From Acholeplasma laidlawii PG-8A (lineage in GTDB: Bacteria > Bacillota_I > Bacilli_A > Acholeplasmatales > Acholeplasmataceae), in contig NC_010163.1 in the NCBI RefSeq assembly GCF_000018785.1, positions 630,001 to 662,000 on the forward strand: DNA of 32,000 nucleotides, in the 5' to 3' direction. Positions 427 to 31,347 of the stretch are shown here, in pieces. The notes below the pieces were generated by a model. The model was not told the origin of the DNA. It ran no database searches and was given only the letters and a program-made list of their open reading frames with translations. Made by a program: the position numbers and the translations under genes. Position 1 is the first letter of the stretch. The number at the start of each line of letters is the position of its first letter.

Positions 427-753
427 ATGAAAGTCAAATTTGAAACGAGAGCATTCAAAGAACAGATTATTCCACAGGATGATTTTGTAGTTGAGAAAGT
501 TGTCGAGATATCACAAAGACAGTTTAATAAGTTCTTAGATGATATGCTTGGCGATTATGATTTCATAAAAGCTCACAAGGATTTAATGTACACAGACAGC
601 AAAAACGTGTGGCACGCAATTTTAGTAACAACTAAAGCATTAGACTATGGAATCCTAGTACAAGCAGATGGTTCAAGTTATGCTAGATACTCCGCATTTA
701 TTAGAAAAAGTGAGATAGGAGGATTAGGTGATGGAAAAACAACAACTGCTTAA
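427..753 (+). CDS. Hypothetical early protein, paralog A of 1541..1846
   Basis: GGAAAGAGG RBS upstream. About half of ~92 aligned residues are identical to ORF 1541..1846, including IPQD-F-VEK, DYDFIK-H, LMY-D, GILV and YARY-AFI. Confidence 0.6.
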   Translation: MKVKFETRAFKEQIIPQDDFVVEKVVEISQRQFNKFLDDMLGDYDFIKAHKDLMYTDSKNVWHAILVTTKALDYGILVQADGSSYARYSAFIRKSEIGGLGDGKTTTA

Positions 754-1893: not shown

Positions 1894-3042
1894 ATGAAAA
1901 TTATAACAAGTGAATCTGTCTTTAAAGGACACCCAGATAAAATATGTGACCAAATCAGTGATGCAATCTTAGATGCACATTTAGAGCAAGACAGAAATGC
2001 AAGAGTAGCAGTAGAAACAGCTATCAAAGATGATGTTGTTTTTATCTTTGGTGAGGTCACATCCAAAGCTTCAGTGAATTATAAAGAAGTCGCACTAACC
2101 ACATTAAAAGAAATCGGATATGATGATCCATTCGATGTGATTGAAAAGATATCCAAACAGTCCGATGATATTGCACTTGGTGTAAATCATACGAACGATC
2201 ATGAACAAGGTGCAGGTGATCAAGGCTTAATGTTTGGCTACGCTTGCAAAGAAACGCCAGAATTTATGCCTTTACCGATTGTGGTGGCACATGACATTGC
2301 AAGAAGCATTGACGAGCTTAGAAAGGCAAAGTATGGCCACGTGTTTGGTCCAGATGGTAAGTGTCAAGTTTCTGTAGTCTACGAGAATGATGAACCGATT
2401 GCTTATGAAACAATCGTAGTGTCTGCGCAAACAAAGCATGGCATTCAATTAGATTATGCTAAAGAGATAATTTTAAATGAAGTATTGAAACTACTGATAG
2501 GTGAAGACCTTTCACACATTCAAGTCTTAATCAATCCAACAGGTGCTTTTGTCGTTGGTGGACCATATGGAGATTCTGGATTAACTGGTAGAAAGATTAT
2601 TGTTGATACCTATGGTGGTTATGCTAAACATGGCGGTGGCGCATTCTCTGGCAAGGATGTGAGCAAGGTAGACCGCAGTGCGGCTTACTATGCCAGATTC
2701 GTAGCAAAAGCCCTTGTAGCGGCAAATTTAGCGAACAGGTGCGAAGTTAGTGTGTCCTATTCCATCGGTGTAGCAAACCCTGTAAGTGTATCCGTTGATA
2801 CCTTTGGAACAGGTGTTACTTCTGATGATGTTTTATTAAAGTTAATTAAAGAGAACTTCAACTTTACACCGTCAAGTATTATCAAAGAACTAAACCTGGA
2901 CAAAGTGAAGTTTAAACCGTTAGCATCTTATGGACATATAGGTCGTGTTGATCTTGATGTTGCATGGGAAAAAGTAGATGCAAAAGCTAAACAATTAAGT
3001 GAATCTTATGAGCAAACCAAAAGAACTGCACAGGTTCTATAA
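1894..3042 (+). CDS. metK: S-adenosylmethionine synthetase (methionine adenosyltransferase)
   Basis: SESVFKGHPDKICDQISDAILDA at the N-terminus, GAGDQGLMFGYA, DGKCQVSV, GGPYGDSGLTGRKIIVDTYGG and GGGAFSGKD. These are full-length MetK hallmarks (382 aa). GAGGAAA RBS. Confidence 0.95.
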   Translation: MKIITSESVFKGHPDKICDQISDAILDAHLEQDRNARVAVETAIKDDVVFIFGEVTSKASVNYKEVALTTLKEIGYDDPFDVIEKISKQSDDIALGVNHTNDHEQGAGDQGLMFGYACKETPEFMPLPIVVAHDIARSIDELRKAKYGHVFGPDGKCQVSVVYENDEPIAYETIVVSAQTKHGIQLDYAKEIILNEVLKLLIGEDLSHIQVLINPTGAFVVGGPYGDSGLTGRKIIVDTYGGYAKHGGGAFSGKDVSKVDRSAAYYARFVAKALVAANLANRCEVSVSYSIGVANPVSVSVDTFGTGVTSDDVLLKLIKENFNFTPSSIIKELNLDKVKFKPLASYGHIGRVDLDVAWEKVDAKAKQLSESYEQTKRTAQVL

Positions 3043-3292
3043 GTCGAAGGCTTGGCTCGTTGCTCGTAATATCAAAACAAACGCCACACAGGGCAAGTGT
3101 GAGCGGTGTGGCGCGATTGGTGAAGAGGTTCACCATAAGATTAGGCTGACTGTAGATAATGTCAATGATACCAATATTAGTTTGAATCAAGATAACTTAG
3201 AGTTGTTATGTAGGGACTGTCACAATAAAGAGCATGGACGATTCAAGAAACAAGAAGTACTGTTTGATGTGTTTGGAAATTTTACTGGTTGA
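2999..3292 (+). CDS. HNH endonuclease (phage packaging-associated type)
   Basis: CERCG...VHHK...NLELLCRDCHNKEH gives two CxxC pairs plus H-N-H. The likely true start is the ATG at 3008 (MSKPKEL). The gene overlaps the metK 3' end. Confidence 0.85.
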   Translation: MNLMSKPKELHRFYKSKAWLVARNIKTNATQGKCERCGAIGEEVHHKIRLTVDNVNDTNISLNQDNLELLCRDCHNKEHGRFKKQEVLFDVFGNFTG

Positions 3293-3313
3293 ATGGTAAA
3301 CAATCTTATAATG

Positions 3314-3322
3314 TGGTAAAAT
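3314..3322 (+). promoter_or_regulatory. Possible extended -10 promoter element upstream of the defence island
   Basis: TGGTAAAAT (TGn-TAAAAT), 36 nt upstream of the TTG start at 3358. The -35 (TGGTAA, 17 nt spacing) is weak. Confidence 0.25.
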
Positions 3323-3357
3323 TATAAAAAAGTCGTTTCAAAAAAGGGGTTGTTTCT

Positions 3358-4389
3358 TTGTCATTAGATACTACATATTCAATCTTACCGAAAGATTTAT
3401 CGGGTTCTAGAACTAAAAATAGATTTAGACAAGAGATGTTATGGGGAATTAGTAAAATATATGATCTTTATTTGGAGAACCCAGATGATTTTTTTGTTAT
3501 ATTTGACTATGTTTGTGATATTGAAGTTGGATTCAATGATACATTGCATTTTTATCAAGTAAAAACAAAAGATACTAGCAGTCCTTTTAGTATTTCGGAT
3601 CTAATTAGAAAGAAGAGTGGTCATTCTTATTTATCCTTGCTTTTTTCATTGAAGGTAAACAATCAAATCAAGAGTATTAATGTAGTTTCTAATACAAAAC
3701 TATCAATTAAAAATACCATACTTCAAAATTCTGAGATAATACCTTTTGAAAGTTTAGAAGATGATGAAAAGAAAAAAATTGAAGATCATCTTAAAGCAAA
3801 ATCTATTCTAGTCACAGATCTAAAGGACTCATTCTTCATAAGGTCAGATTTTTGCATTAATAATCCCGATACATTATTAATAGGTAAGACTGTTGAGTTT
3901 TTAGAAAATGCAAAAGGTATTAAATTAAGTGAACCAAAACTGATATATAATTACATAAAGGGATTGGTAGACAGAAAAGCAAGTTATGAGTTGAACACTA
4001 TTGATTTAAATGATACGATCGATAAAAAAGGAATAAAAAGAAGTGAAATTGATAACATATTGAATAATTTACTAGGCGCTGACAGATATAGAGAAAAGAC
4101 TTTATCTAAAATAGAGGCACTAAATGGTGATTATAATTATGGAGAAGTATTGCTTTTAAAAACCGCATTGTCTAGAGTTTTTAAATATGGGATTACATCA
4201 AAAACAATAGAAGCACTAATTGTAGATATTAGTAATTGTATCAATGATAATGAAAGTACTATTCAGGATTTGAAATTATCTGAGATAGTCGAATATGTCT
4301 ATAATTGTATTGAATGGGATATTATCAAGGATAAGTCAGAAAGAAAGTGCATAATACTATTGACATTAACAAAAATGGAAAGCGTGTAG
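3358..4389 (+). CDS. DUF4297/Cap4-type dsDNA nuclease domain protein, LmuA-like (Lamassu effector candidate)
   Basis: N-terminal GSRTKNRFRQEMLWG followed by FVIFDYVCDIEVGFNDTLHFYQVKTKD (D...D-x-E...QxK, PD-(D/E)xK-like). This matches my memory of the DUF4297 consensus. AAAGGGG RBS, TTG start. Confidence 0.65.
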   Translation: MSLDTTYSILPKDLSGSRTKNRFRQEMLWGISKIYDLYLENPDDFFVIFDYVCDIEVGFNDTLHFYQVKTKDTSSPFSISDLIRKKSGHSYLSLLFSLKVNNQIKSINVVSNTKLSIKNTILQNSEIIPFESLEDDEKKKIEDHLKAKSILVTDLKDSFFIRSDFCINNPDTLLIGKTVEFLENAKGIKLSEPKLIYNYIKGLVDRKASYELNTIDLNDTIDKKGIKRSEIDNILNNLLGADRYREKTLSKIEALNGDYNYGEVLLLKTALSRVFKYGITSKTIEALIVDISNCINDNESTIQDLKLSEIVEYVYNCIEWDIIKDKSERKCIILLTLTKMESV

Positions 4390-4398
4390 GTGAAATAG

Positions 4399-6084
4399 AT
4401 GAAAAACATGATTGTAAATAGCATTGCTATAATTAGTCCTAATAGTAAAACAGCAAAATATGCTGAATTTACTGCAGGAATTAATGTTGTCACATCTAAC
4501 AAAAATATAAACGGTAATTATGTGGGTAAATCTAGTCTACTAAGAAGTATTTATCATACATTAGGAGCAGATGGTAAGTTTACAACAAGCTTATGGGAAA
4601 GAGAAGGCAAGTACACATACATACTAGATTTTTCAATCAATAATAGCAGATTTAGAATGTTAAGATTTGATAATCTATTCAAATTGTATGATGAAAACAA
4701 TAGTTTATTATTTAAGGTTATAAATAGAACAGACCTAGCAATCGAACTTAACAAACTGTTTAACCAAGAAATTTATCTTAAAAATAAGAATAACGAATAT
4801 TCTATTGCACATCCTGCATTTAATTATCTATTAAATTATATTGATCAAAAAGAAATCCGTGTGTCGGAATTTAGCACATTTAATGGTTTGAATGCATTTT
4901 CTGCCTTTTATTCTGATTTATTATACTCACATTTGGGTGTTAACAACAAGCAATTTAATGAGTTGAAAATTGAATCAGATGAATTAAATAGAAAAATCGG
5001 TGAAATAAATAAGAAGAACCTAATGTTCAATGAAATGCTAGCACAAATAGATAAGAATAAAGATTTGAATTCAAATTACTCTGAGATTGAAGTTTTAAAA
5101 AAAGAACTGCAAAAACACCAAGATGAATATACTAAACTCATTGGTGAAGCAAACAAGTTAAAAGAAAAATTACTTAAGACAAATGATTCTAAGATAGAGA
5201 TTGAGTTTGCTATTAATGAATTACGAAAAATGATCAGTTCTGATGAGAAGGTATTAGATAAATCAATTAAGGAACACACATGTCCTATCTGCAATTCAGA
5301 GCTAAGAGATGATAGTCATGCATATATTCATAAAGCAGTTGATGTTGATGGTGCAAAATTTCAATTACTTGATGCTGAAAGAGAATTAGGTAAACTTAGT
5401 AGAGAAATCATTTTAACTAACAGTAAGTATGAAGACAATCTTGCGGAACTGAAAAGAATTGAAGCAAGAGTTTTTGAGGGTAATAAGGGTTTGGAAGATA
5501 CAATAAAATCTTATGGAATGAAAAAGATTAAGGCAAATATATTTGAAGAAATATCAAACAATGAAGTATCCAAAAATACATTTATTGAAGACAGAAAAAA
5601 GATTACAAAGCTACTCAGATCGCTTGATGAGAGAAAAAAGGAAGTTAACAAAAAATATTTGACTAATTTCTATGATATTTATCAAAAATATTCGCTTGGT
5701 GGGTTTGATTTATCTTCAATAGATAGTGTTGAAACAAAGATCAAAGTTGATGGAACGAGAGTTAATATTACTCAGGTTGCTTGGTTATGTTCATTGTTGA
5801 AGACCAAATACGAATTTAATCCGGATAGTTTAATTTACCCTTTAGTATTTGACAATCCTAATAATGCTGATTTTGATGAGGATAATGAAAGAAAAATATT
5901 TAATTTGATATTTGATAACTTACCGGAAAATGGGCAAATAATTACATCGTTAGTTGGATTTGATCAAAACCTGTATAATTCATATGAAATTAAGAAAAAA
6001 ATAATGTTGGTTAATCCTGAAAATTCACTATTAAATAATGATGATTTTGAATCGTGTTTAGATAGATATAGTTCAATTTTATAG
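4399..6084 (+). CDS. SMC/Rad50-like coiled-coil ATPase, LmuB-like (DUF3732-like)
   Basis: N-terminal P-loop-like GNYVGKSSLL. A long K/E-rich coiled-coil is interrupted by CPICNSEL, a CxxC that resembles a zinc hook. C-terminal IYPLVFDNPNN is Walker-B-like (hhhhD). AGGTGA RBS, 9 nt after the preceding gene. Confidence 0.6.
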   Translation: MKNMIVNSIAIISPNSKTAKYAEFTAGINVVTSNKNINGNYVGKSSLLRSIYHTLGADGKFTTSLWEREGKYTYILDFSINNSRFRMLRFDNLFKLYDENNSLLFKVINRTDLAIELNKLFNQEIYLKNKNNEYSIAHPAFNYLLNYIDQKEIRVSEFSTFNGLNAFSAFYSDLLYSHLGVNNKQFNELKIESDELNRKIGEINKKNLMFNEMLAQIDKNKDLNSNYSEIEVLKKELQKHQDEYTKLIGEANKLKEKLLKTNDSKIEIEFAINELRKMISSDEKVLDKSIKEHTCPICNSELRDDSHAYIHKAVDVDGAKFQLLDAERELGKLSREIILTNSKYEDNLAELKRIEARVFEGNKGLEDTIKSYGMKKIKANIFEEISNNEVSKNTFIEDRKKITKLLRSLDERKKEVNKKYLTNFYDIYQKYSLGGFDLSSIDSVETKIKVDGTRVNITQVAWLCSLLKTKYEFNPDSLIYPLVFDNPNNADFDEDNERKIFNLIFDNLPENGQIITSLVGFDQNLYNSYEIKKKIMLVNPENSLLNNDDFESCLDRYSSIL

Positions 6085-6085
6085 T

Positions 6086-6135
6086 CCCCCCCATTACCTT
6101 GCATTATGAAGTGTAAGGGTACCGCATGGGTGGGC
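6086..6135. repeat. GC-rich imperfect hairpin in the spacer between the Lamassu-like pair and the SIR2 gene
   Basis: CCCCCCCAT...ATGGGTGGG outer stem (one mismatch) with an inner ACCTT/AAGGGT stem. It is locally far more GC-rich than its surroundings and has no downstream T tract. Confidence 0.4.
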
Positions 6136-6200
6136 AATTAAAAAACATCAGCCCAAAATTTTGAAAATCGGAAATTAAATTTGAAAAAAGAGGTTATACA

Positions 6201-6956
6201 ATGGACGAATTGAGAAAAATATTTAATAGTAACAGATTACCAGCCTTTTTTGTAGGTGCTGGTATGTCAAAAAGGTATCTCAAAAATATGCCTTCATGGG
6301 ATGAATTATTAATATCTGTTTCAGATTATATTGGAATAAGTAAAACACAATATTATGGAATGAAACAACTTATAAATGAAGACAATATGCAAATGCCTAA
6401 GTTAGCCTCATTATTAGAAAATAAGATAAGAGATAAAGTCATAGACGGTACTTTTAACATTGATGAAGCTTTGTCAGATAAACTAAAAACTGAGATACCA
6501 AATAATGTTTCATTTCTAAAACTATTGATTGCTGAAAGACTTACCAAACTAGAAATCAAAGAAGATGAAAAAACTCAAAAAGAAATAAAGTCATTGAAGA
6601 AATCAATTAAAAAAATCAATAATATATTTACTACGAACTTCGATATGTTCTTTGAAAAATACGTATTGGATGACGATGATATGACTGTTTTTGATTCACA
6701 AGAGTCTTTGTACTTTACTAATTCATTTGGAATATCTGAAATGTATAAAATTCATGGTTCTATCCGCAATCCTAAATCAATGGTTATTAACGAAAAAGAC
6801 TATATAAATTATCTCGAAGATATGAATCTTTTTGTATCAAAACTTTATAATTCGCTTATCGAAAGGCCAATCATTTTTCTAGGATATGGATTAAATGACT
6901 CTAACATTTTAAAAATTTTAGAAGGATTTATTAAACACTTTAATTTAGATGATTGA
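6201..6956 (+). CDS. SIR2_2-family (sirtuin-like NADase) domain protein, N-terminal portion
   Basis: FFVGAGMS (GAGxS), TTNFD (the TTNYD motif), KIHGSI, NEKDY and IIFLGYGLNDSNI. This is the ordered motif set of defence-type SIR2_2 domains, and the catalytic-type Asn and His are present. Confidence 0.75.
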   Translation: MDELRKIFNSNRLPAFFVGAGMSKRYLKNMPSWDELLISVSDYIGISKTQYYGMKQLINEDNMQMPKLASLLENKIRDKVIDGTFNIDEALSDKLKTEIPNNVSFLKLLIAERLTKLEIKEDEKTQKEIKSLKKSIKKINNIFTTNFDMFFEKYVLDDDDMTVFDSQESLYFTNSFGISEMYKIHGSIRNPKSMVINEKDYINYLEDMNLFVSKLYNSLIERPIIFLGYGLNDSNILKILEGFIKHFNLDD

Positions 6957-7765
6957 AAAAGGTAGCAAACAACCTAATTTTTATGAATATTTTGGCTGGG
7001 GAAGAAAATCTACTTTTTGGCGAAGCTACATTTCAAGTTGGCAACAAGCAGATTACAATGAAAAAAATCAAAACAGATAATTATTCAAAAATATTCGATT
7101 ATATAAGTTCTGTTAAAGAAGCGATAAGTGCTAGAGAGATCAAAAGATATAAAGACATTGTGTACGATATCATAGCAAATCATGAAAAAAACGGTGAAAA
7201 AGTATTTGTTGTGAACGCACTGGATATTAACAAGATTGATTCTAACAAAATGGTTCTAGGTATACACCCCAAATATGACGAGACTTTGCCTACTAGAGGA
7301 TTAGTTGGTTTGGATACCGTAACCTTTATAGAACATGCTTTATATAATAATAGTACTATTAAATTTGAAGATATAGCAGGAGTTTGGGCAGAGAAAAGAT
7401 TGAGTAAAACTCATTATTTTCCAACCTATTATATAAAAAATAATGTAACAAATGGATTTAATTTTGGCGCTAAATATATTGCTAATTATGATGCGATGGA
7501 AAAAAGATATATTGAATTAAAGAAAAAAGCTGGGAATCTGAGCCAAGAGAAGATAACTCAATATGAACAAGACTACAATGATTCAGTACTTAAACCTACA
7601 AAAGATAAAAAAGATGTTCTTTTTCATAATTCTCTTTTGCTTCTGATTATAAAAAAAGTTTCTAAAGATGATTTCAGAGATTTTCTAAAAGAAATGTATA
7701 AAAAGAATAAAGAGTACATTAATAATTCTGGTTTTAAGCAATGTATCTGTTACTTGGATAGATGA
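6953..7765 (+). CDS. Either the C-terminal continuation of the SIR2 protein in the -1 frame or a separate coupled gene; no recognised domain
   Basis: The frame opens immediately after an in-frame TGA. The only start at the junction is TTG at 6953 (TTGA overlap); the next ATG is at 6983. There is no SD-like sequence upstream. NNLIFMNIL looks like the missing last Rossmann strand. Confidence 0.5.
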   Translation: MKKVANNLIFMNILAGEENLLFGEATFQVGNKQITMKKIKTDNYSKIFDYISSVKEAISAREIKRYKDIVYDIIANHEKNGEKVFVVNALDINKIDSNKMVLGIHPKYDETLPTRGLVGLDTVTFIEHALYNNSTIKFEDIAGVWAEKRLSKTHYFPTYYIKNNVTNGFNFGAKYIANYDAMEKRYIELKKKAGNLSQEKITQYEQDYNDSVLKPTKDKKDVLFHNSLLLLIIKKVSKDDFRDFLKEMYKKNKEYINNSGFKQCICYLDR

Positions 7766-7790
7766 TAAAAAAATTCGAGGATATTAAGAA

Positions 7791-8618
7791 ATGGATGTAT
7801 TATTACCTAAAAAAGTTTATAAGTATCGCAAATTTGTAGAAAATGACATTAATGCTCTAGAAAACCTTGAATTATGGGGTGCTACTGCATCAGCAATGGC
7901 AGACGAACATGATTGTGGTGTAGTGGCAAATCTAGATTTAATAACTGAATTTTTGAAAGGTAAAATGAAATCTGAATTCATTAATACAGTCTGCGAAAAT
8001 TTACTTAAACGCTTCAATGATTATTTCAGATCATCAAGATACATAATTTCCCTTTGCGATGATCACAGTGTAGATACTATGTGGAATCAATATTCTGACA
8101 ATCATAGTGGATTTGTCATCGAATATGACACGAATGATATTATCTTTTTAACTAATAAAATACTTGATAAAATATATAATGAATTGGAATTTTCAAATAA
8201 TATAAAGAATCATGAAGCTGTTAAAGAGTTATTGCGAAAGTATGATACTGGTTTTTATAAAGTTAAATACACGAATGAACCCTTTGATATTACCAAAGAA
8301 TTATTATCTGAGTTGGAAATCATGCATAAAGAAAGAGTATCTAATGAATATACAGTGGTAGATTATAATGATAAACATTTTTTTCATCAAGAAAAACTCA
8401 TAAAAAATATAGTAACGACAAAAAAACTAGAACTATCATATGAAAACGAATGGCGAGTTGTGGTGCCATCACTTTTTAAAAATATGACGGTTAAAGCAAT
8501 GCCTTTATTGAGAGTTAAACCATCAAAAATTATTGTAGGTTCATTTGTTTCACCTCAAAATAGGGAAAGAATAAATGATATAGCAAAAAAACTATGCATT
8601 AAAATAGATTTTAGATAA
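7791..8618 (+). CDS. DUF2971-like protein
   Basis: N-terminal VYKYRKF...NALENLELWGATASAMADEHD and a later YENEWRVV resemble the DUF2971 consensus (YHY...l.fs.p..fNDp.E ... E.EWR). Assigned from memory of the family, not from a search. Confidence 0.5.
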   Translation: MDVLLPKKVYKYRKFVENDINALENLELWGATASAMADEHDCGVVANLDLITEFLKGKMKSEFINTVCENLLKRFNDYFRSSRYIISLCDDHSVDTMWNQYSDNHSGFVIEYDTNDIIFLTNKILDKIYNELEFSNNIKNHEAVKELLRKYDTGFYKVKYTNEPFDITKELLSELEIMHKERVSNEYTVVDYNDKHFFHQEKLIKNIVTTKKLELSYENEWRVVVPSLFKNMTVKAMPLLRVKPSKIIVGSFVSPQNRERINDIAKKLCIKIDFR

Positions 8619-8645
8619 TTTGAAGAAATACATAGCAGGATAATT

Positions 8646-8978
8646 ATGGAAAAAACAAAAATAAACATTGAATATTTGCGACTTAAGTCGCTTTTTTCAT
8701 CTGTCGATGAAACCAAAACAGAACTAGTTGATAGTTTGATACAACAAGCAGCTTTTATGAAGGTTGAACTTGGAATACTTCAAAATCAAATCAGAATACA
8801 TGGAGCTGTTCAAGTTTCAAGTAAAGGTGCACAGCGTCAAACTGAAGCTGCAAAGTATTACACTAAGTTAGTTAATTCATATGGAACTGTAATAAAAACA
8901 CTCAACTCAATAATGGGTAAAAATATAATCGATGAAGATGATGAATTTGACAAGTTTATAGGTAGAATGTCTGAATGA
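8646..8978 (+). CDS. terS: Terminase small subunit (P27 family-like)
   Basis: 110 aa, lies immediately upstream of terL with an ATGA overlap. Size and helical character are typical of P27-type small terminases that pair with an HNH. Confidence 0.7.
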   Translation: MEKTKINIEYLRLKSLFSSVDETKTELVDSLIQQAAFMKVELGILQNQIRIHGAVQVSSKGAQRQTEAAKYYTKLVNSYGTVIKTLNSIMGKNIIDEDDEFDKFIGRMSE

Positions 8979-10612
8979 ATTACTTAATTAAATATTATGA
9001 CGAGATTCAAAAAGGAAATATCATTGTTGGTAAAGAATTACTAACAGTTCTAGAAACGCTAATTCAAGATATGGATAATCATAGATATACGTTTGATGAA
9101 AAGCCAGGAAATATTCGAATTGAGTTTATCGAAACATTTTGTAAGCATACGAAAAGTCCATTTAATGGTGAACCATTCATTTTAGAACTATGGGAAAAAG
9201 CAATTCTACAAGCTGCTTATGGATTCAAAATTGCTGATACCAATCTCAGGAGGTTTAATGAAGTAATTCTACTTATTGCTAGAAAGAATGGTAAGACTAC
9301 ATTCATTGCAGGTATTGATTTAGCAGAGTTTTTCTTATCTAAGGGTGGTGTTGATATTGTATGTGCTTCAAACACATCGGAGCAGGCTAATATATTGTTT
9401 GATGAAATCAACAACATGAGAGAAGGTTCAAAAGCATTATCAAATGAAAAAAGAAGTAAAAAGAATATTTTTCATATTTATTCACCAAAGTCAAAAAACA
9501 AGATAAAGAAACTATCCGCACAATCACGAAACAAAGATGGTTACAACATTGAAGTTGGTTGTATCGATGAAGTACATGAAATGACTGATTCTAAGGTTTA
9601 TGATGCGATCAAGCAAAGTCAATCGACCAAAGAAGAACCACTTATTTTTATCATTACAACTGAAGGTAATACAGTGGGTGGTTTCTTAGATAGCAAACTT
9701 GATTATGTTAGAAAGATGATCAAAGGGGAGATTAACGATGAACGTGTGCTTCCTTGGTTATACACTCAAGATTCAATTAATGAAATCTATGAAGATAAGA
9801 GCACATGGCAGAAAAGTAATCCAAGTTTAGGTACTGTAAAAACATATTCATATCTTGAAGACTTAATGAATAAATCCAGACATGACTTAGCAACACGAGT
9901 TACGATGCTTTGTAAAGACTTCAACATTAAGCAATTAGAACAAGGATCATGGTTAACTTATAATGATCTAAATAACGAATCAACCTATGATATCAATGAG
10001 TTAAGAAACAGTTATGCTATAGGCGGTGTTGACTTGTCATCAACAACAGACCTTACGGTTGCACTCTTACTTCTAATTAAAAATGGAAAGAAGTATGTTA
10101 TCCCACAGTTCTTTATGCCAAGTGAAGTTATAAAGCGCAGAAAGGAAGAGGATAACGTTCCCTATGACATTTGGGTTCAACGAGGTTTAATCACTGTTAC
10201 AGAAGGTAATCAAAATGACTTCACACTTGTTACACAGTGGTTTCTAATGATGATTAGGACATATGAGATTAGACCTCTATGGGTAGGTTATGATCCGTGG
10301 AATAGTCAGTACTGGACTAAAGAAATGGAAGACTTAGGGTTTGAAATGGAAAAGGTCAGACAAGGAATATACTCTTTATCAGAACCTATGAAACAACTTG
10401 AAGCGGATCTTAAAAATGGTAATGTAATCTATAATAATAATCCAATCATGAAATGGAACTTGTCTAATACTCAAGCAAAGATTGATATCAATGGAAATAT
10501 TCAGCCATCAAAACTTGGAAGCAAGTATAAAAGAATTGATGGAGCTGTAGCACTTATTATTGCTTATGCAGTGCTTAATAGATATAAGTTAGAATATGAA
10601 AATATGTTATAA
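8975..10612 (+). CDS. terL: Terminase large subunit
   Basis: 545 aa. Walker A-like ARKNGKTT, Walker B-like GCIDEVHE, and a C-terminal nuclease region (GGVDLSSTTDLT ... GYDPWN ... IDGAVALIIA). Position is upstream of the portal gene. Confidence 0.93.
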   Translation: MNYLIKYYDEIQKGNIIVGKELLTVLETLIQDMDNHRYTFDEKPGNIRIEFIETFCKHTKSPFNGEPFILELWEKAILQAAYGFKIADTNLRRFNEVILLIARKNGKTTFIAGIDLAEFFLSKGGVDIVCASNTSEQANILFDEINNMREGSKALSNEKRSKKNIFHIYSPKSKNKIKKLSAQSRNKDGYNIEVGCIDEVHEMTDSKVYDAIKQSQSTKEEPLIFIITTEGNTVGGFLDSKLDYVRKMIKGEINDERVLPWLYTQDSINEIYEDKSTWQKSNPSLGTVKTYSYLEDLMNKSRHDLATRVTMLCKDFNIKQLEQGSWLTYNDLNNESTYDINELRNSYAIGGVDLSSTTDLTVALLLLIKNGKKYVIPQFFMPSEVIKRRKEEDNVPYDIWVQRGLITVTEGNQNDFTLVTQWFLMMIRTYEIRPLWVGYDPWNSQYWTKEMEDLGFEMEKVRQGIYSLSEPMKQLEADLKNGNVIYNNNPIMKWNLSNTQAKIDINGNIQPSKLGSKYKRIDGAVALIIAYAVLNRYKLEYENML

Positions 10613-10629: not shown

Positions 10630-11154
10630 ATGAGCAAAGTATTTGATGATGTAGTCAAGTTGAAAGTCTATGAAAAAAACATTAATCAATATGATTCTAT
10701 TATCGATAACTTTTTATCGAGGTATTTTATTTGTGAAACATATGCAAAAGAGTTACAGAAGAATGAACTTTATAGTAATAACAAAGCGGAGTTAATGAAA
10801 CAATTCAAAAAGGAAATAGGACAATTATTGACATCAGAATCTTTAGAAAAAAGATTAGATACATTAGATATGTCAAAGTTCAAAATCTTTAATGAAAGAA
10901 AAAATGACATCAATGTAGGAACATTGAAAAGAATTATTCCAAACGAGAAGTTTAATGAAGATGATTTAAACTTGATATTTTACTCTACAGCAATTAAGAA
11001 TGCAAATAATGATAATATTAAGACTGCTAGAGTATTAAGAAATGAAATTGTACATAGCCTTAGTGAATCAGCGATGAATGAAGTGAAATCTAGGAACACT
11101 GAATTGCTTAAAATCATGACCAGTTTCATTGAATTATTCAGGAGTAATAGTTAA
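10630..11154 (+). CDS. Small HEPN-like protein (Rx4H motif), a moron between terL and portal
   Basis: VLRNEIVHSL at aa 135-144 (R137-x4-H142; nt 11038-11055) in a predicted all-helical 174-aa protein. AGGGTGA RBS. No phage structural role is expected at this position. Confidence 0.45.
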   Translation: MSKVFDDVVKLKVYEKNINQYDSIIDNFLSRYFICETYAKELQKNELYSNNKAELMKQFKKEIGQLLTSESLEKRLDTLDMSKFKIFNERKNDINVGTLKRIIPNEKFNEDDLNLIFYSTAIKNANNDNIKTARVLRNEIVHSLSESAMNEVKSRNTELLKIMTSFIELFRSNS

Positions 11155-23590: not shown

Positions 23591-24240
23591 TGCCTAGAAA
23601 GTTTAGTGATAGCAAGTTAACTGAAATCGTAGTTAATATGTTTGCTATGAATGAAGTCATGTTTATTTATTATTGCGGTTCAGATAACTACAAGACAAAA
23701 CAAAAGAAGTCCGATACTGACTTGACCGTTGTATTAAATAACTTCAATGGAATTATTCATGCTTCAATTGAAGGTGTTGATATATTCGCTTATGGTTATG
23801 AGAACTTTTTACAAAGACAGTCTATGAATGATACGTTGCCGCTATATAATCTAATTCATGCTGATGATGTGATCAATATGACTGAGAATCTAATCTATGT
23901 TAATCCAAGTTATCAAACAGAATACAACAGTATCATAGCTTTAAAGTTTGAAGATGTTTTACCTCAATACTTGGATGCAGTCATTGAGTATTTTAATCAA
24001 CTGGTCAATGTTGAAAAAGTCATAGTTAAAAGAAGTTATCACATTATAAGAATTAGAGGTATTTTAGAGAAATACTTAGAAACTGGAAAATATGATGTGA
24101 ACCTAAATGAGGTATGGTTAAACAAAGTATTTGAACATAAGAAAAACTGGGATAAGGACTTAAACACACCTGACCACTTAAACCAGTTAAAAACATATCT
24201 TGATGAAATAATTACAATTAGAGAAGGTTTGAGAAAGTGA
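23587..24240 (+). CDS. Pol-beta-superfamily nucleotidyltransferase-like protein
   Basis: IYYCGS-x10-DTDLTVVL (hG[GS]...DxD, aa 27-50), with a further acidic residue on the next predicted strand (GVDIF, D65), then a helical C-terminal half. Located between the fibre genes and the holin. Confidence 0.45.
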   Translation: MMPRKFSDSKLTEIVVNMFAMNEVMFIYYCGSDNYKTKQKKSDTDLTVVLNNFNGIIHASIEGVDIFAYGYENFLQRQSMNDTLPLYNLIHADDVINMTENLIYVNPSYQTEYNSIIALKFEDVLPQYLDAVIEYFNQLVNVEKVIVKRSYHIIRIRGILEKYLETGKYDVNLNEVWLNKVFEHKKNWDKDLNTPDHLNQLKTYLDEIITIREGLRK

Positions 24241-24665
24241 AAGTTAAATACTTGATATTAACAATTGTAGGATCTTTAGGTTCCTTAGCCTCATACCTAT
24301 TTGGAGGATTTGATAAATTGTTAATTGCACTCATAATCTTCATGATTATTGATTTTCTATCTGGTTTAATCTTAGCAATCGTATTTAAAAAGAGTAGCAA
24401 AACAAAGAGCGGCAGAGTGAGTAGTGAAGCAGGTATTAAAGGACTGGCCAAGAAAATATTCATTCTCTTTTTAGTTGCTTTAGCTGAACAACTAGACATT
24501 GTTTTAGGTACTAATCTTGTAAGGGATGGAGCCGTTATTGCTTTCATATCTATGGAAGGTGTAAGTATCTTAGAAAATTCAACCCTTGCAGGATTACCAG
24601 TTCCAAGAATGATTAAAAACGCACTTGAAGTGCTAAGTAAAGGTGAGGATAAGAAAGATGAATAA
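24237..24665 (+). CDS. Holin (phage_holin_4_1 / TcdE-like family)
   Basis: 142 aa with three predicted TM segments. LIALIIFMIIDFLSGLILAI and the following basic loop are typical of this holin family. Confidence 0.78.
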   Translation: MKVKYLILTIVGSLGSLASYLFGGFDKLLIALIIFMIIDFLSGLILAIVFKKSSKTKSGRVSSEAGIKGLAKKIFILFLVALAEQLDIVLGTNLVRDGAVIAFISMEGVSILENSTLAGLPVPRMIKNALEVLSKGEDKKDE

Positions 24666-25436: not shown

Positions 25437-26430
25437 TAGTTGAAGACGAAGCAGAAATAGTTAGACGCATTTATAGAATGTTTTTAGTTGAAGGAAAAAC
25501 TGCAACCGGCATAGCCACTTACTTAAAAAAACTTCATGTTAAAACACCTTCTGGCAAAAACACTAATTGGACCAAAAACACAATAACATCAATTCTAAGT
25601 AATGAAAAGTATAAAGGTGATGCACTACTTCAAAAGACTTTATAGATGATTTCTTAGAAAAATCAGTAGTTAAAAATACGGGCCAAATTCTTCAATATTA
25701 TGTTGAGAATAGTCATCCAGCAATCATTGATAAAAACACTTGGGAACTTGTACAGTTGGAACTAAAAAGAAGGAGTGTACTTGGACCTAAATATTCTGGT
25801 AGTAACTTATTCTCTTCAAAACTTGTATGCGAAGACTGCGGTGGTTTTTATGGAAAGAAAAAATGGCACTCAGGAAGTATGCACGAGAAGATTGTTTATC
25901 AATGCAACAACAAGTTTGATAAAGGAAAAGACAAATGCCAAACTCCACACTTGAGTGAGGAAACAGTAAAGACTAAGTTCATTGAAGCGTATAATTTAAC
26001 GATGGGAGATAAAAGAAGAATTATTGACGATTCAAAAGAAGTTATTGGCTTACTAACCGACACTATCAAAATTGATGATGAGATTGTAAAAATTAATGAA
26101 GAGATTACAATTGTTTCAGAGCTTGTTAGTAAACTGGTTAAGGAAAACTCAAAGACAGATATTCAATTCGGGGAGTACAACAAAAGATACGAAGAGTTAT
26201 CAGAACGTTATGAAAAATTAAGACTTAGACATGAAGAACTATTAAAACAAAAGAATAGCAAACAAGCAAAAGCCATAAAGCTTAGAGCATTCATTTCAAG
26301 CCTTGAAAACTCTGATCACCAGATAAAATATTGGAATGAAATGATATGGATGTTAATAGTTGAAAGCGCAACAGTTCATAGAGATTCAAGTGTTACATTT
26401 AAGTTTCACAATGGGTTGGAGATTAAATAG
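25409..26430 (+). pseudogene. Large serine recombinase remnant. The N-terminal resolvase catalytic domain is absent and there is an internal frameshift near 25640.
   Basis: Frame A (25439-25645): VEDEAEIVRRIYRMFLVEGKTATGIATYLKKLHVKTPSGKNTNWTKNTITSILSNEKYKGDALLQKTL then stop. Homology continues in the adjacent frame from 25639: FIDDFLEKSVVKNTGQILQYYVENSHPAIIDKNTWELVQLELKRR, then a zinc ribbon (CEDCGG...YQCNNK) and a coiled coil. No Ser-catalytic domain precedes it. Confidence 0.8.
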
Positions 26431-26467
26431 GTAGCAATAGAAAATAAATATTTATAATGATTTAAGT

Positions 26468-26538
26468 GCCTGAATATGTTAAACTATAACTATAAAAATC
26501 CGGTTTTTATCAATAGTTATTTTTGAAACATTTCAGGC
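26468..26538. repeat. Long imperfect nested inverted repeat downstream of the recombinase remnant
   Basis: Outer arms are GCCTGAATATGTT and AAACATTTCAGGC. The inner pair is ATAACTAT / ATAGTTAT around AAAAATCCGGTTTTT. Confidence 0.5.
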
Positions 26539-26566
26539 TATTTAATTTTAAATAAGGAGGGTTAAA

Positions 26567-27382
26567 TTGAAAAAAATATATACTATAATTTTAATCGTTA
26601 TCAGTGGATTTTTTTTAAGTAGTTGTCAATCTAACCTTGATTTTGACTTTATAATTCCTGACAAAGAAGACTATTCCATAAATGAGATCATCTTCGATGA
26701 TTTTACTCAATCAACAATTATCGACTTTGATAATATAACTGAGGAATCGTTGCTTTCTGCACAGCAAGCAAATATTTATATATCCAACATTTCATATAAT
26801 GATAAATGGTTTTTTTCAAAGAAGGACAATTACACTGGAAGTGGAGTTATTTTTTTTGAAACAGAGTCATTCTATTATGCACTAACTAACGCGCACGTTG
26901 TTGATAAACATCAAGACTTTGAGAATCATATTATTGAAGTATATGACTATTTTAATAATAAATATAACGCCTTTGTTTATGAAGGAAGCTTTAACTATGA
27001 CTTGGATTTAGCGGTTTTGGTTTTTTATAAAAACGAAGTAGAACTGACTGTTTTGAATATTGTGTATGGTGAGATTGGGGTTGGTGACAATATCATAGCA
27101 ATCGGAAACCCACTCGGTGAAAAGAATGTTATTTCTGTTGGTAAAGTTATAAGATATAACAAAACAAGAGTTGAGGATAGATACGGAAATATTAAAACTA
27201 ATGAATTTAACTCGATAATTCATAGTAGTAAGACAAATGCTGGATCAAGCGGAGGGATGATTTTGAATTTCGATTTAAAAATAGTTGGAATAAACTATGG
27301 AGGGAATCGCAGCGAAGAAAACCCTGAGGGGTTTGCGGTTTCATCCAAATTAGTAATTGATTTTTTATTAAGAATAATCTAG
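26567..27382 (+). CDS. Trypsin-like (S1) serine protease lipoprotein
   Basis: Signal peptide with lipobox FFLSSC. Catalytic triad contexts are LTNAHVV (His), DLAVLVF (Asp) and NAGSSGGMIL (Ser). AAGGAGGG RBS with a TTG start. Confidence 0.8.
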   Translation: MKKIYTIILIVISGFFLSSCQSNLDFDFIIPDKEDYSINEIIFDDFTQSTIIDFDNITEESLLSAQQANIYISNISYNDKWFFSKKDNYTGSGVIFFETESFYYALTNAHVVDKHQDFENHIIEVYDYFNNKYNAFVYEGSFNYDLDLAVLVFYKNEVELTVLNIVYGEIGVGDNIIAIGNPLGEKNVISVGKVIRYNKTRVEDRYGNIKTNEFNSIIHSSKTNAGSSGGMILNFDLKIVGINYGGNRSEENPEGFAVSSKLVIDFLLRII

Positions 27383-27431
27383 TAAAATAAGCTAAAAATA
27401 TAGACATCATTAGCGTAGTTACTATGTAATG

Positions 27432-27440
27432 TGCTAGAAT
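27432..27440 (+). promoter_or_regulatory. Possible extended -10 element upstream of mcrB
   Basis: TGCTAGAAT (TGn-TAGAAT), 65 nt upstream of the ATG at 27505. No good -35. Confidence 0.3.
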
Positions 27441-27504
27441 ATATCTAAATGAGAACGGTAAGTAAACAAGATTTAAAAATGAATTAAATGAGAGGGCTTT
27501 TATA

Positions 27505-29949: not shown

Positions 29950-29956
29950 TAGATAG

Positions 29957-31261
29957 GTGGTGAACTCAGTGAAAAAGCCTCTGATTGTTAGAGAATATGA
30001 TGAAATTATTAACTTAGATAATAAAAAAGATGGAATGATAGTTAAAACTTTGCCATCTGATACTTTTGATAATTTAAAGCTTTTCATAGAAGAGTTTAAC
30101 ACCGAAATGCATGAAGCTGATGCTCTTGATTTTATGCGAGTTGGATATAAGCGAAACTATGGTGATGTTATTACCATAAGAAATTATGTCGGTTTGATTC
30201 AAATGAATGATGGAACTCAAATAGAAGTATTACCCAAGCTTTCTTTTGAAGGTGAATATGAGACTATTGCTAAGCAAGTCTTTATTAAGATGCTCAGAAG
30301 TCTTAAAGAGTTTTCAGGTAAGGTTTTTAATTCTGCAAGCTTAAATGTTGATCGTATGAATCTTTATGAGATTTTTATTAGCATGTACATTCAAGAAGTG
30401 AGACATTTGGTTAAGACAGGTATCAAGTCTTTTTATGAAACTAAGGAAGATAATCTGAAGGTTTATAAAGGAAAATTAAAAGTAAAAGAGCAACAACGAT
30501 ATAACAATGTCCATAAAGAGAGATTTTTTGTTGCTTATGACGAATATACGACTAATAGACCAGAGAATAGACTAATTAAAAGTACACTGTTAAAGCTGCA
30601 AAAATTGTCGAATTATATAGAAAATGTCAAAGAAATACAAAACCTGTTAAATAGTTTTGAACTAATAGAACCATCTACCAACTTTGATAGTGATTTTTCT
30701 AAGGTTACAATTAATAGAGGTAATAAAGAATACGAAACAATTATGATATGGTCAAAGGTGTTTTTATATAACAGAAGTTTTACTACTTTTTCTGGAAGTA
30801 CTACAGCAAGAGCTTTATTATTCCCAATGGAGAAGATATTTGAATCGTATGTTGCTTCAGAGTTAAAAAAACACTTGCGTGATAAAGACTGGAGTATATC
30901 AACACAAGACAAAGGCTTTTATTTATTCGATGAACCATCCAAGTTTTCACTTAGACCTGATATAGTTATAACTAAAGAAAATGACGAAACAATCATACTG
31001 GATACGAAGTGGAAAATACTAATAGATGATGAACGTAAGAACTATGGTGTTTCACAAGCAGATATGTATCAAATGTATGCATACGCTAAGAAGTATGAAT
31101 CAAAAAAAGTATTCGTTATTTATCCTTTGAACCCAGAAATGAGTAAATACGCTATAGATGGAATCGAATTTAGAAGTGAAGGGATTTCTGTTCAGTTACT
31201 ATTCATTGATTTGTTAAATGTTGATGATAGTCTTAAATACATTACGGACAAAATGATATGA
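29957..31261 (+). CDS. mcrC: McrC nuclease subunit (PD-(D/E)xK)
   Basis: Starts 8-20 nt after mcrB. LRPDIVI...IILDTKWK (D...D-x-K) and ADMYQMYAYAKKY are classic McrC C-terminal motifs. The real start is probably the GTG at 29969 (AGGTGG RBS, 8 nt spacing). Confidence 0.85.
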   Translation: MVNSVKKPLIVREYDEIINLDNKKDGMIVKTLPSDTFDNLKLFIEEFNTEMHEADALDFMRVGYKRNYGDVITIRNYVGLIQMNDGTQIEVLPKLSFEGEYETIAKQVFIKMLRSLKEFSGKVFNSASLNVDRMNLYEIFISMYIQEVRHLVKTGIKSFYETKEDNLKVYKGKLKVKEQQRYNNVHKERFFVAYDEYTTNRPENRLIKSTLLKLQKLSNYIENVKEIQNLLNSFELIEPSTNFDSDFSKVTINRGNKEYETIMIWSKVFLYNRSFTTFSGSTTARALLFPMEKIFESYVASELKKHLRDKDWSISTQDKGFYLFDEPSKFSLRPDIVITKENDETIILDTKWKILIDDERKNYGVSQADMYQMYAYAKKYESKKVFVIYPLNPEMSKYAIDGIEFRSEGISVQLLFIDLLNVDDSLKYITDKMI

Positions 31262-31347
31262 TTTTCTGGAATTCAAAAAAAATTATATTTAATTATTGCT
31301 ATATGTTATTCTCTTCACATAATCAAAGAAAAGGATGTGAAGATTAA

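What the first reader, a model, noticed from the sequence alone, without database searches (positions are those of the whole stretch)
6201..8618. SIR2_2 NADase-like gene, an unknown continuation and a DUF2971-like gene: a candidate undescribed anti-phage module carried by a prophage
ORF 6201-6956 carries the full ordered SIR2_2 motif set: GAGMS, TTNFD, KIHGS and FLGYGLND. The Asn and His that are catalytic in ThsA-type NADases are both present. It is followed by 270 codons with no recognisable domain (4-nt overlap), then after a 25-nt gap by a 275-aa protein whose N-terminus and EWR motif resemble DUF2971. The block is co-oriented and has its own RBSs. A distinctive GC-rich spacer separates it from the upstream Lamassu-like pair. 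I see no partner that would place it in a described SIR2 system. There is no TIR (Thoeris), no HerA helicase (SIR2-HerA/Nezha), no pAgo (SPARSA) and no STAND NTPase (AVAST). It is also far shorter than DSR1/DSR2. By guilt by association, given a defence island inside prophage cargo space, it could be a sensor (DUF2971 and/or the C-terminal region) coupled to an NAD-depleting effector.
Basis: partly seen in the sequence, partly recalled or inferred. Interest (0 to 1): 0.8.

Follow-up and report, generated by a model that had tools for sequence, protein, structure and literature searches.

The report
Two separate prophage defence-candidate genes
The block is two unrelated single-gene anti-phage candidates already catalogued by PADLOC, sitting side by side in a cargo slot of an Acholeplasma laidlawii prophage: a 521-aa SIR2 NADase-like gene, frameshifted in this copy, and a DUF2971 ADP-ribosyltransferase-like gene.

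Summary
ORFs 6201-6956, 6953-7765 and 7791-8618 exist, and the SIR2_2 and DUF2971 assignments pass Pfam thresholds.

The first two ORFs are one gene. Near-identical A. laidlawii genomes carry an intact 521-aa ORF. This window differs by three single-T indels within about 45 bp, and the first cuts inside the SIR2 fold.

Neither gene is undescribed.
- The 521-aa protein matches PADLOC PDC-S25 end to end. PDC-S25 is an untested single-gene "phage defence candidate". It also matches phrog_2695.
- The DUF2971 protein matches PADLOC PDC-S31. It shares its Pfam domain with Aristaios, a validated lactococcal abortive-infection system with an ADP-ribosyltransferase fold.

They are not a module.
- Only 4 of 99 non-redundant SIR2 loci have a DUF2971 gene nearby, in varying order.
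- None of 39 DUF2971 viral loci has this SIR2.
- The two closest SIR2 homologues sit in the same HNH-to-terS slot without DUF2971.

Typical SIR2 neighbours are prophage repressors, ImmA peptidases, integrases and type I R-M subunits.

The likely mechanism is inferred, not shown: a stand-alone sensor-effector NADase. Its fast-evolving C-terminal half has no detectable fold relative.

Interest is modest. It is a new member of known candidate families.

The parts
6201..7765 (+). One SIR2-family gene (PADLOC PDC-S25, phrog_2695). It is 521 aa when intact and is read as two ORFs in this window.
   Evidence: PADLOC PDC-S25 matches both halves in order. Intact 521-aa P0001 is 99% identical. The family is uniformly about 520 aa.
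6201..6956 (+). N-terminal fragment of 251 aa. It holds most of the SIR2_2 NADase-like domain, including N146 and H185.
   Evidence: Pfam SIR2_2 E=3.7e-20, covering profile positions 2-109 of 141, so it is truncated.
6953..6954 (+). Frameshift site. The window has TT where intact copies have TTT, which creates the TGA stop at 6954-6956.
   Evidence: Alignment with L001, L002 and L003.
6984..6993 (+). Two further single-T indels that compensate each other: TT to T at 6984, and TTT to TTTT at 6990-6993. They change IEY to MNI.
   Evidence: These are the only indels in 15.7 kb that is otherwise 99.975% identical.
6953..7765 (+). C-terminal fragment of 270 aa. It contains the last part of the SIR2 fold, then a family-specific alpha/beta plus helical region with no known fold relative. 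This region is the presumed sensor or regulatory domain.
   Evidence: PADLOC PDC-S25 positions 251-510. The profile aligns to ThsA up to about residue 317. There is no Pfam hit and no Foldseek hit. Mean pairwise identity is 23% here against 38% for the N-terminal half.
7791..8618 (+). DUF2971 gene of 275 aa (PADLOC PDC-S31, phrog_1762). It has an ADP-ribosyltransferase-like fold family and is an independent single-gene defence candidate.
   Evidence: Pfam DUF2971 E=1.2e-11. PDC-S31 E=1e-24. phrog_1762 E=6.6e-45. The conserved MW..Y..H.G..YD and E-x-EWR motifs are.
6085..6200 (+). Intergenic spacer between lmuB and the SIR2 gene. Its 5' half is relatively GC-rich, and a GAGG ribosome-binding site precedes the ATG.
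   Evidence: No significant structure or RNA family was found. It is not conserved in L007.
3358..6084 (+). Lamassu type I pair: LmuA with a Cap4 nuclease domain (3358-4389) and LmuB (4399-6084). It is the neighbouring, separate defence system in the same slot.
   Evidence: PADLOC LmuA 2.8e-69 and LmuB 7.5e-171. Pfam Cap4_nuclease. The pair is absent from L007 and L214.
2999..3292 (+). Phage HNH endonuclease, the left border of the cargo slot.
   Evidence: PHROG HNH hits. Conserved in L007 and L214.
8646..10612 (+). Small-terminase-position gene (8646-8978, phrog_1066) and the large terminase (8975-10612). Together they form the right border of the cargo slot.
   Evidence: The 8646 ORF is 87% identical to the gene directly after SIR2 in L214.

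Best explanation
Positions 6201-8618 hold two functionally independent single-gene anti-phage candidates. They were inserted separately into a variable cargo slot, between the HNH endonuclease and the terminase genes, of an Acholeplasma laidlawii prophage. The same slot also holds a Lamassu pair.

Gene 1 (6201-7765) is one 521-aa protein of the PDC-S25 family.
- It has an N-terminal SIR2_2 domain with the ThsA/DSR-type Asn and His.
- It has a fast-evolving C-terminal region specific to the family.
- In this sequence three single-T indels break the gene, and the first truncates the SIR2 fold. This copy is therefore either inactive or mis-sequenced.

The inferred mechanism of the intact protein is an autonomous sensor-effector. 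The C-terminal region would detect a phage cue, the SIR2 domain would then hydrolyse NAD+, and superinfecting phage would be aborted to the benefit of the lysogen.

Gene 2 (7791-8618) is a DUF2971 (PDC-S31) protein. It is inferred to act on its own as an ADP-ribosyltransferase-type abortive-infection toxin, like Aristaios.

Shown here: gene identity, family membership, the split, genomic contexts and the lack of linkage. Inferred: NADase activity, the sensing role, the ADP-ribosyltransferase activity and the defence phenotype.
For: One gene:
- PADLOC PDC-S25 covers ORF1 (positions 13-244) and ORF2 (positions 251-510) in order.
- Intact 521-aa P0001 lies on 17 contigs, including complete A. laidlawii genomes.
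- The window is 99.975% identical to L001 over 15.7 kb. Its only three indels are in T-runs within about 45 bp.

Family:
- 819 representatives at 50% identity reach E<1e-30. Nearly all of the best 150 are about 500-570 aa and match end to end.
- 153 of the fetched loci encode full-length members.

Stand-alone gene:
- Immediate neighbours are heterogeneous.
- Upstream: Peptidase_M78/ImmA in 9 loci, HTH or S24 repressors, and HsdS in 5.
- Downstream: tyrosine integrases in 14, serine recombinases in 4, and HsdR in 4-6.
- In phage BK5-T the gene (ORF30) sits between endolysin and integrase, with annotated putative promoter signals and terminators of its own.

Independence from DUF2971:
- 4 of 99 SIR2 clusters have DUF2971 nearby, at positions +1, -1, -2 and -2.
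- 0 of 39 DUF2971 viral loci have this SIR2.
- L007 and L214 have SIR2 in the same slot without DUF2971 or Lamassu.

Catalytic residues: N146 and H185 align with the Asn and His of the ThsA TTNYD and YKMHG motifs and are at least 85% conserved across 99 members.

Sensor-like C-terminus:
- Pairwise identity is 23%, against 38% for the N-terminal half.
- No relatives were found outside the family.
- No fold match was found.

DUF2971:
- Pfam, PADLOC and PHROG all match.
- The ExE motif (E218, E220) and conserved Tyr are present.
- Aristaios is a validated DUF2971 Abi system (PMC11381338, PMC13064643).
- DUF2971 has been analysed as a DarT-like ADP-ribosyltransferase (PMC12522546).
Against: - No member of PDC-S25 has been tested. 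The PDC set is explicitly 'untested', and my literature searches found no validation.
- NADase activity and the sensing role of the C-terminus rest on analogy with ThsA, DSR2 and Avs5.
- The C-terminal model is only moderately confident (pLDDT 70), so 'no fold match' is weak evidence.
- DUF2971 appears near SIR2 in 4 of 99 clusters. That is probably more than random DNA would give, though it is consistent with defence-island clustering.
- The window's DUF2971 has MADEHDC where relatives have FNDPFDC.
- BLAST detects no similarity between it and any lactococcal plasmid protein. Kinship with Aristaios is therefore at the Pfam-domain level only.
Confidence: 0.72

Rival explanations
1. One reading: SIR2 and DUF2971 form one two-gene system. 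DUF2971, the C-terminal region, or both would sense infection and switch on the SIR2 NADase.
For: - The genes are co-oriented with a 25-nt gap and probably share a transcript.
- DUF2971 recurs within three genes of SIR2 in L053, L087 and L010.
- Both protein families use NAD+.
Against: - Only 4 of 99 clusters show the pairing, with changing order and spacing.
- 0 of 39 loci show it in the reverse test.
- The closest homologues in the same slot lack DUF2971.
- PADLOC lists both as single-gene candidates.
- A DUF2971 protein works alone in Lactococcus.
- An ADP-ribosyltransferase would need the NAD+ that SIR2 destroys.
Confidence: 0.06
2. The split is a real mutation. In this strain the SIR2 gene is a dead pseudogene, for example after counter-selection of a toxic NADase, and only Lamassu and DUF2971 are active.
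For: - The first indel removes the last third of the SIR2 fold. The profile aligns to ThsA up to about residue 317, and the Pfam match on ORF1 stops at profile position 109 of 141 at the ORF end.
- ORF2 has no ribosome-binding site.
- A homologue in Streptococcus phage IPP23 is also annotated as two ORFs.
Against: - Three homopolymer indels lie within 45 bp, while the other 15.7 kb has a single substitution. This pattern looks more like a local sequencing or assembly error than three independent mutations.
- Every other copy on record is intact.
- The split ORF1 product is on no record in the collection.
Confidence: 0.3
3. The SIR2 protein is not a defence gene. It would serve the phage instead, for example as a protein deacylase or NAD-dependent regulator of lysogeny or host takeover.
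For: It is carried by many temperate phages next to lysogeny modules. PHROGs lists it as 'unknown function'.
Against: - It also occurs outside prophages, embedded in type I R-M operons and beside PglZ, type IV REase and other PDC genes.
- It belongs to the SIR2_2, ThsA/DSR-like branch rather than to canonical sirtuin deacylases.
Confidence: 0.08

Closest known systems
PADLOC PDC-S25 (single-gene phage defence candidate; Payne et al. 2024 preprint, guilt-by-embedding)
   Same: The fused protein matches the profile end to end. It has the same length of about 520 aa. It has the same habit of sitting inside type I R-M operons and other defence loci.
   Different: This copy is frameshifted and lies in a mollicute prophage packaging-module slot. 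The family has no tested function.
ThsA (Thoeris type I effector, SIR2-SLOG)
   Same: It is the closest solved SIR2 domain (6LHX, 8BTO). The query Asn and His align with those of its TTNYD and YKMHG motifs. Both have a SIR2 domain at the N-terminus and a regulatory domain at the C-terminus.
   Different: There is no SLOG domain and no ThsB/TIR partner. The C-terminal region is unrelated.
DSR1 / DSR2 (defence-associated sirtuins)
   Same: Both are single polypeptides with an N-terminal SIR2 NADase domain and a C-terminal sensor. DSR2 is the top Foldseek hit for the SIR2 domain.
   Different: This protein is half the length, 521 aa against about 1000-1200 aa. It has no alpha-solenoid C-terminal domain, and the PADLOC Dsr1/Dsr2 matches cover only the SIR2 part.
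Aristaios (Lactococcus plasmid DUF2971 abortive-infection protein) / PADLOC PDC-S31
   Same: The 275-aa protein has the DUF2971 domain, the ExE-type motif and a stand-alone architecture.
   Different: BLAST detects no similarity to lactococcal plasmid proteins. The N-terminal FNDPFD motif is divergent. It has not been tested.
Lamassu type I (LmuA Cap4-nuclease + LmuB)
   Same: The upstream pair at 3358-6084 is a clear member.
   Different: It is a separate system and is absent from the related prophages that keep the SIR2 gene.

Membership tests
Pfam SIR2_2 / ThsA-DSR-type SIR2 NADases | Domain score above the curated threshold | tested here: met
   72.9 bits against 24.5 for ORF1 and 71.8 bits for intact P0001.
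Pfam SIR2_2 / ThsA-DSR-type SIR2 NADases | Catalytic Asn and His conserved | tested here: met
   N146 and H185 align with the Asn and His of the ThsA TTNYD and YKMHG motifs. They are at least 85% conserved in 99 members. Their identity as catalytic N112 and H152 rests on my own knowledge of ThsA.
Pfam SIR2_2 / ThsA-DSR-type SIR2 NADases | NAD+ hydrolysis on activation | not testable with these tools
   This needs an enzyme assay.
PADLOC PDC-S25 | Full-length match to the family profile | tested here: met
   ORF1 matches positions 13-244 (4.2e-60) and ORF2 matches positions 251-510 (4.7e-30) of 517.
PADLOC PDC-S25 | Single-gene system with no conserved partner, found embedded in or next to defence systems | tested here: met
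   Neighbours are heterogeneous in 99 clusters. HsdS, HsdR, PglZ and other PDC genes are adjacent in some.
PADLOC PDC-S25 | Demonstrated anti-phage activity | not testable with these tools
   The family is listed among 145 untested candidates.
Thoeris (ThsA + ThsB) | SLOG domain in the effector and a TIR-domain ThsB neighbour | tested here: not met
   The PADLOC ThsA match covers the SIR2 part only. The C-terminus has no Pfam domain. The neighbours are LmuB and DUF2971.
DSR1 / DSR2 | A protein of about 1000-1200 aa with a long C-terminal sensor domain | tested here: not met
   The protein is 521 aa. The Dsr1 and Dsr2 profiles match only positions 16-217 and 120-216.
SIR2-HerA (Nezha) / SPARSA / Avs5 | HerA, short pAgo or STAND NTPase partner or domain | tested here: not met
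   No such domain was found in the protein or in its neighbours.
DUF2971 / PADLOC PDC-S31 / Aristaios-type ADP-ribosyltransferase | DUF2971 domain above threshold and a PDC-S31 match | tested here: met
   46.2 bits against 22. PDC-S31 E=1e-24.
DUF2971 / PADLOC PDC-S31 / Aristaios-type ADP-ribosyltransferase | ADP-ribosyltransferase motifs: a conserved Tyr (motif II) and ExE (motif III), as described in PMC12522546 | tested here: met
   Y101, Y112 and E218-N-E220-W-R are conserved in the alignment.
DUF2971 / PADLOC PDC-S31 / Aristaios-type ADP-ribosyltransferase | Direct sequence or structure similarity to the Aristaios protein itself | tested here: inconclusive
   tblastn against PLSDB plasmids found only a Vibrio DUF2971.
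Hypothetical two-gene SIR2-DUF2971 system | Conserved co-occurrence and gene order across genomes | tested here: not met
   4 of 99 clusters, in variable order. 0 of 39 in the reverse test. Absent in L007 and L214.
Lamassu type I | LmuA (DUF4297/Cap4 nuclease) followed by LmuB (SMC-like ATPase) | tested here: met
   LmuA 2.8e-69, LmuB 7.5e-171 and Pfam Cap4_nuclease 6.9e-24.

The most novel reading that the evidence does not exclude
PDC-S25 proteins may be a large, still untested class of autonomous SIR2 NADase immune sensors carried mainly by temperate phages. Their C-terminal half would be a new phage-sensing fold with no solved or predicted relative.

A smaller possibility is that, in the few loci where DUF2971 sits beside it, the two NAD+-using enzymes are functionally coupled. 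For example, an ADP-ribosyltransferase product or the NAD+ level could gate the other enzyme.
Probability: 0.45. Interest if true: 0.5.

Novelty: new member of a known kind. Interest (0 to 1): 0.3.

Why it matters
If the intact gene protects, it would turn a widespread catalogue entry into a characterised system. PDC-S25 has more than 800 clusters at 50% identity and occurs in phages BK5-T, phBC6A51 and streptococcal prophages. It would be a short, single-chain SIR2 NADase with an unknown sensor domain.

The locus is also a compact example of a prophage cargo slot, between HNH and terS, that stacks three unrelated defences in a mollicute.

For the scan itself, the lesson is that adjacency in a hotspot does not make a module.

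Tried and rejected
- Megablast of 3300-8700 against the phage collection gave no match.
- A word-based homologue search for the DUF2971 protein returned only itself.
- tblastn of the DUF2971 protein against plasmids returned one weak Vibrio hit.
- The C-terminal domain gave nothing. Pfam was empty. The homologue search returned only fragments of the same family. Foldseek gave a best E of 0.066 against PDB and 0.07 against BFVD.
- An Rfam scan of the whole window found nothing.
- The spacer fold was not significant.
- The promoter scan was no better than shuffles. Four terminator-like sites were found against 0.8 expected, but none lies at the boundaries of these genes.
- A look-up of the split ORF1 product found nothing on record.
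- Membership of Thoeris, DSR1/2, SIR2-HerA, SPARSA and Avs5 was considered and rejected (see the membership table).
- A programmed frameshift was rejected, because all other copies are in frame and two further compensating indels lie nearby.
Full report
**Observation**

- 6201-6956, 251 aa, ATG start.
- 6953-7765, 270 aa, TTG start, overlapping the upstream stop by 4 nt.
- 7791-8618, 275 aa, after a 25-nt gap.

ORF1 reaches Pfam SIR2_2 at 72.9 bits (cut-off 24.5). ORF3 reaches DUF2971 at 46.2 bits (cut-off 22). ORF2 has nothing above threshold. The four motifs can be read in the translation, and their key residues are invariant in a family alignment. The upstream pair is a clear Lamassu, with LmuA at 2.8e-69 and LmuB at 7.5e-171. 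The first 60 nt of the spacer are 46.7% GC, the 98th percentile for this window. The spacer does not fold better than shuffles (z=-1.0) and matches no Rfam family.

**The two SIR2 ORFs are one gene**

PADLOC's PDC-S25 profile (517 positions) matches ORF1 over positions 13-244 and ORF2 over positions 251-510. A search with the fused sequence found P0001, a 521-aa 'SIR2 family protein' of Acholeplasma laidlawii, at 99% identity. It is encoded intact on 17 contigs, including complete genomes.

The window is 99.975% identical to one of these (L001, LS483439.1) over 15.7 kb, with one substitution and three gaps (the substitution is at 8049). All three gaps are single-T changes in T-runs within about 45 bp:
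- TTT to TT at 6953-6954, which creates the stop.
- TT to T at 6984.
- TTT to TTTT at 6990-6993. The last two cancel each other and turn IEY into MNI.

The family profile aligns with the ThsA SIR2 domain up to about residue 317. The Pfam match on ORF1 stops at profile position 109 of 141. The break therefore lies inside the SIR2 fold. ORF2 has no ribosome-binding site.

Three clustered homopolymer indels in an otherwise almost identical 15.7 kb look more like a local sequencing or assembly error than three mutations. I cannot decide this without reads. Either way the biological unit is a single 521-aa protein.

**What the family is**

- A profile search of 1.8 billion representatives gave 11,004 hits at E<=0.001 and 819 at E<=1e-30. 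Nearly all of the best 150 are about 500-570 aa and match end to end.
- PHROGs has it as phrog_2695, full length, function unknown.
Of the loci fetched, 153 encode full-length members, falling into 99 clusters at 80% identity.
- The closest solved relatives, by sequence and by fold, are the SIR2 domains of ThsA, DSR2 and KomC.
- N146 and H185 align with the Asn and His of the ThsA TTNYD and YKMHG motifs. The 8BTO chain carries Ala at that Asn position. That these are catalytic N112 and H152 is from my own knowledge of ThsA.
- The AF2 model of P0001 has pLDDT 79.
- The C-terminal half has no Pfam domain. No relatives outside the family were found. No Foldseek match was found in PDB or BFVD, though the model has pLDDT of only 70.
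- Across the 99 representatives the N-terminal half averages 38% pairwise identity and the C-terminal half 23%. The catalytic residues are at least 85% conserved. This is the pattern expected of a conserved effector joined to a diversifying sensor.

**Is there a partner gene?**

No.

- I clustered the three genes on either side of the SIR2 gene in the 99 representatives. The recurrent families were XRE/S24 repressors (26 loci), tyrosine integrases (24), serine recombinases (12), ImmA-like peptidases (9) and HsdM (6). DUF2971 appeared in only 4, counting the window's own locus.
- Pfam and PADLOC scans of the immediate neighbours agree. Upstream: Peptidase_M78 in 9, HTH families, and HsdS in 5. 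Downstream: Phage_integrase in 14, resolvase-type recombinases in 4, HsdR in 4-6, plus single PglZ, type IV REase and other PDC genes.
- In phage BK5-T the gene (ORF30) lies between endolysin and integrase, with annotated putative promoter signals and terminators of its own. In phBC6A51 and IPP23 it also sits at lysogeny or lysis module borders.
- In Clostridium it is embedded between hsdS and hsdR. That is the type of context from which Payne et al. derived the PDC candidates, which they describe as untested.

**SIR2 and DUF2971 are not linked**

- The four co-occurrences have DUF2971 at +1 (this locus), -1 (L053), -2 (L087) and -2 as fragments (L010).
- In the reverse test, none of 39 viral loci encoding DUF2971 relatives has a gene matching the SIR2 profile within 6 kb.
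- The two closest SIR2 homologues lie in the same slot of related prophages. In L214 (P0002, 65% identity) the order is HNH, DUF4160, a 92-aa ORF, then SIR2. Next comes the homologue of the window's 8646 ORF, at 87% identity. In L007 (P0003, 63% identity) the order is HNH, a 97-aa ORF, SIR2, two small ORFs, then terS-like and TerL.
- A DNA comparison of L007 with the window aligns the phage backbone and the SIR2 gene at 65-72%. It skips MetK, Lamassu and DUF2971.
- DUF2971 and Lamassu are therefore separate insertions into a slot where SIR2 is the older resident.

**The DUF2971 gene**

It matches PADLOC PDC-S31 (1e-24) and phrog_1762. It keeps the MW..Y..H.G..YD block and the E-x-E-W-R motif, with E218 and E220.

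The literature treats DUF2971 as a DarT-like ADP-ribosyltransferase family with a conserved Tyr and an ExE motif (PMC12522546). A 316-aa DUF2971 protein, Aristaios, gives abortive infection on its own in Lactococcus and affects phage transcription (PMC11381338 and PMC13064643).

The window's protein is divergent. It has MADEHDC in place of FNDPFDC, and no BLAST-level relative in plasmids other than one Vibrio hit. I therefore call it a DUF2971/PDC-S31 member, not an Aristaios orthologue.

**Mechanism**

This is inferred, not shown. The intact SIR2 protein most likely works as a one-chain sensor-effector. The variable C-terminal region would detect a phage component, the SIR2 domain would become active (probably through oligomerisation, as in ThsA, DSR2 and Avs5), and NAD+ would be depleted so that infection aborts. 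Expressed from a prophage, this would protect the lysogen against superinfection. DUF2971 would act separately as an ADP-ribosylating toxin.

An obligatory partnership is also awkward chemically. The ADP-ribosyltransferase would need the NAD+ that SIR2 removes.

**Novelty and score**

Both genes belong to families already catalogued as single-gene defence candidates, and one family has a validated member. The architecture is not new and the 'module' is not supported.

What remains open is real but generic. PDC-S25 is untested and its C-terminal domain has no known fold. I rate the finding as a new member of a known kind, with interest 0.3.

Noticed in passing
window 2999-8978, compared with L007 5284-8372 and L214 346-3889: The interval between the phage HNH endonuclease and the terS-position gene is a variable cargo slot in related Acholeplasma-type prophages. 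This window holds Lamassu, SIR2 and DUF2971. L214 holds DUF4160, a 92-aa ORF and SIR2. L007 holds a 97-aa ORF, SIR2 and two small ORFs.
   Followed up: partly
window 1894-3042: A full-length S-adenosylmethionine synthetase (MetK, 382 aa, three Pfam domains) is encoded inside the prophage just upstream of HNH. It is absent from the related prophage L007. It may be a counter-defence or methylation-support gene.
   Followed up: no
window 10630-11154, compared with L007 10078-12035: A second variable slot lies between TerL and the portal gene. Here it holds a 174-aa ORF with no family hit in Pfam or PHROGs and only a weak, sub-threshold PADLOC MTase_II hit (E=0.0012). In L007 it holds an RNase III-domain protein and a 248-aa ORF.
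   Followed up: no
window 25756-31857: After the holin (24237-24665) comes a recombinase remnant with only the Zn_ribbon_recom domain (25756-26430). It is followed by a trypsin-like peptidase, an 814-aa AAA_5 (McrB-like) protein, McrC (E=1.2e-90) and a SprT-like protein. This looks like a type IV restriction locus at the prophage edge, in a lower-GC stretch.
   Followed up: partly
L172 (Streptococcus phage IPP23) 2998-4589: The SIR2-family homologue between the cI-like repressor and the integrase is also annotated as two consecutive ORFs of 357 and 163 aa. This may be a second case of a disrupted copy of the family.
   Followed up: no
window 7890-7915: The DUF2971 protein has MADEHDC where its relatives have the conserved FNDPFDC motif. 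The motif II and III residues are kept.
   Followed up: partly
window 8049: This is the only substitution between the window and L001 in 15.7 kb, and it lies inside the DUF2971 gene.
   Followed up: no
window 427-753 and 1541-1846: Two paralogous DUF6329-type ORFs of 108 and 101 aa have similar N- and C-terminal sequence. They flank two small ORFs upstream of MetK.
   Followed up: no
L053 1035-3616; L087 3422-7509; L010 184-3335: Three unrelated loci have a DUF2971 gene one or two genes upstream of a PDC-S25 SIR2 gene. This is more than random DNA would probably give. A proper enrichment statistic was not computed.
   Followed up: partly
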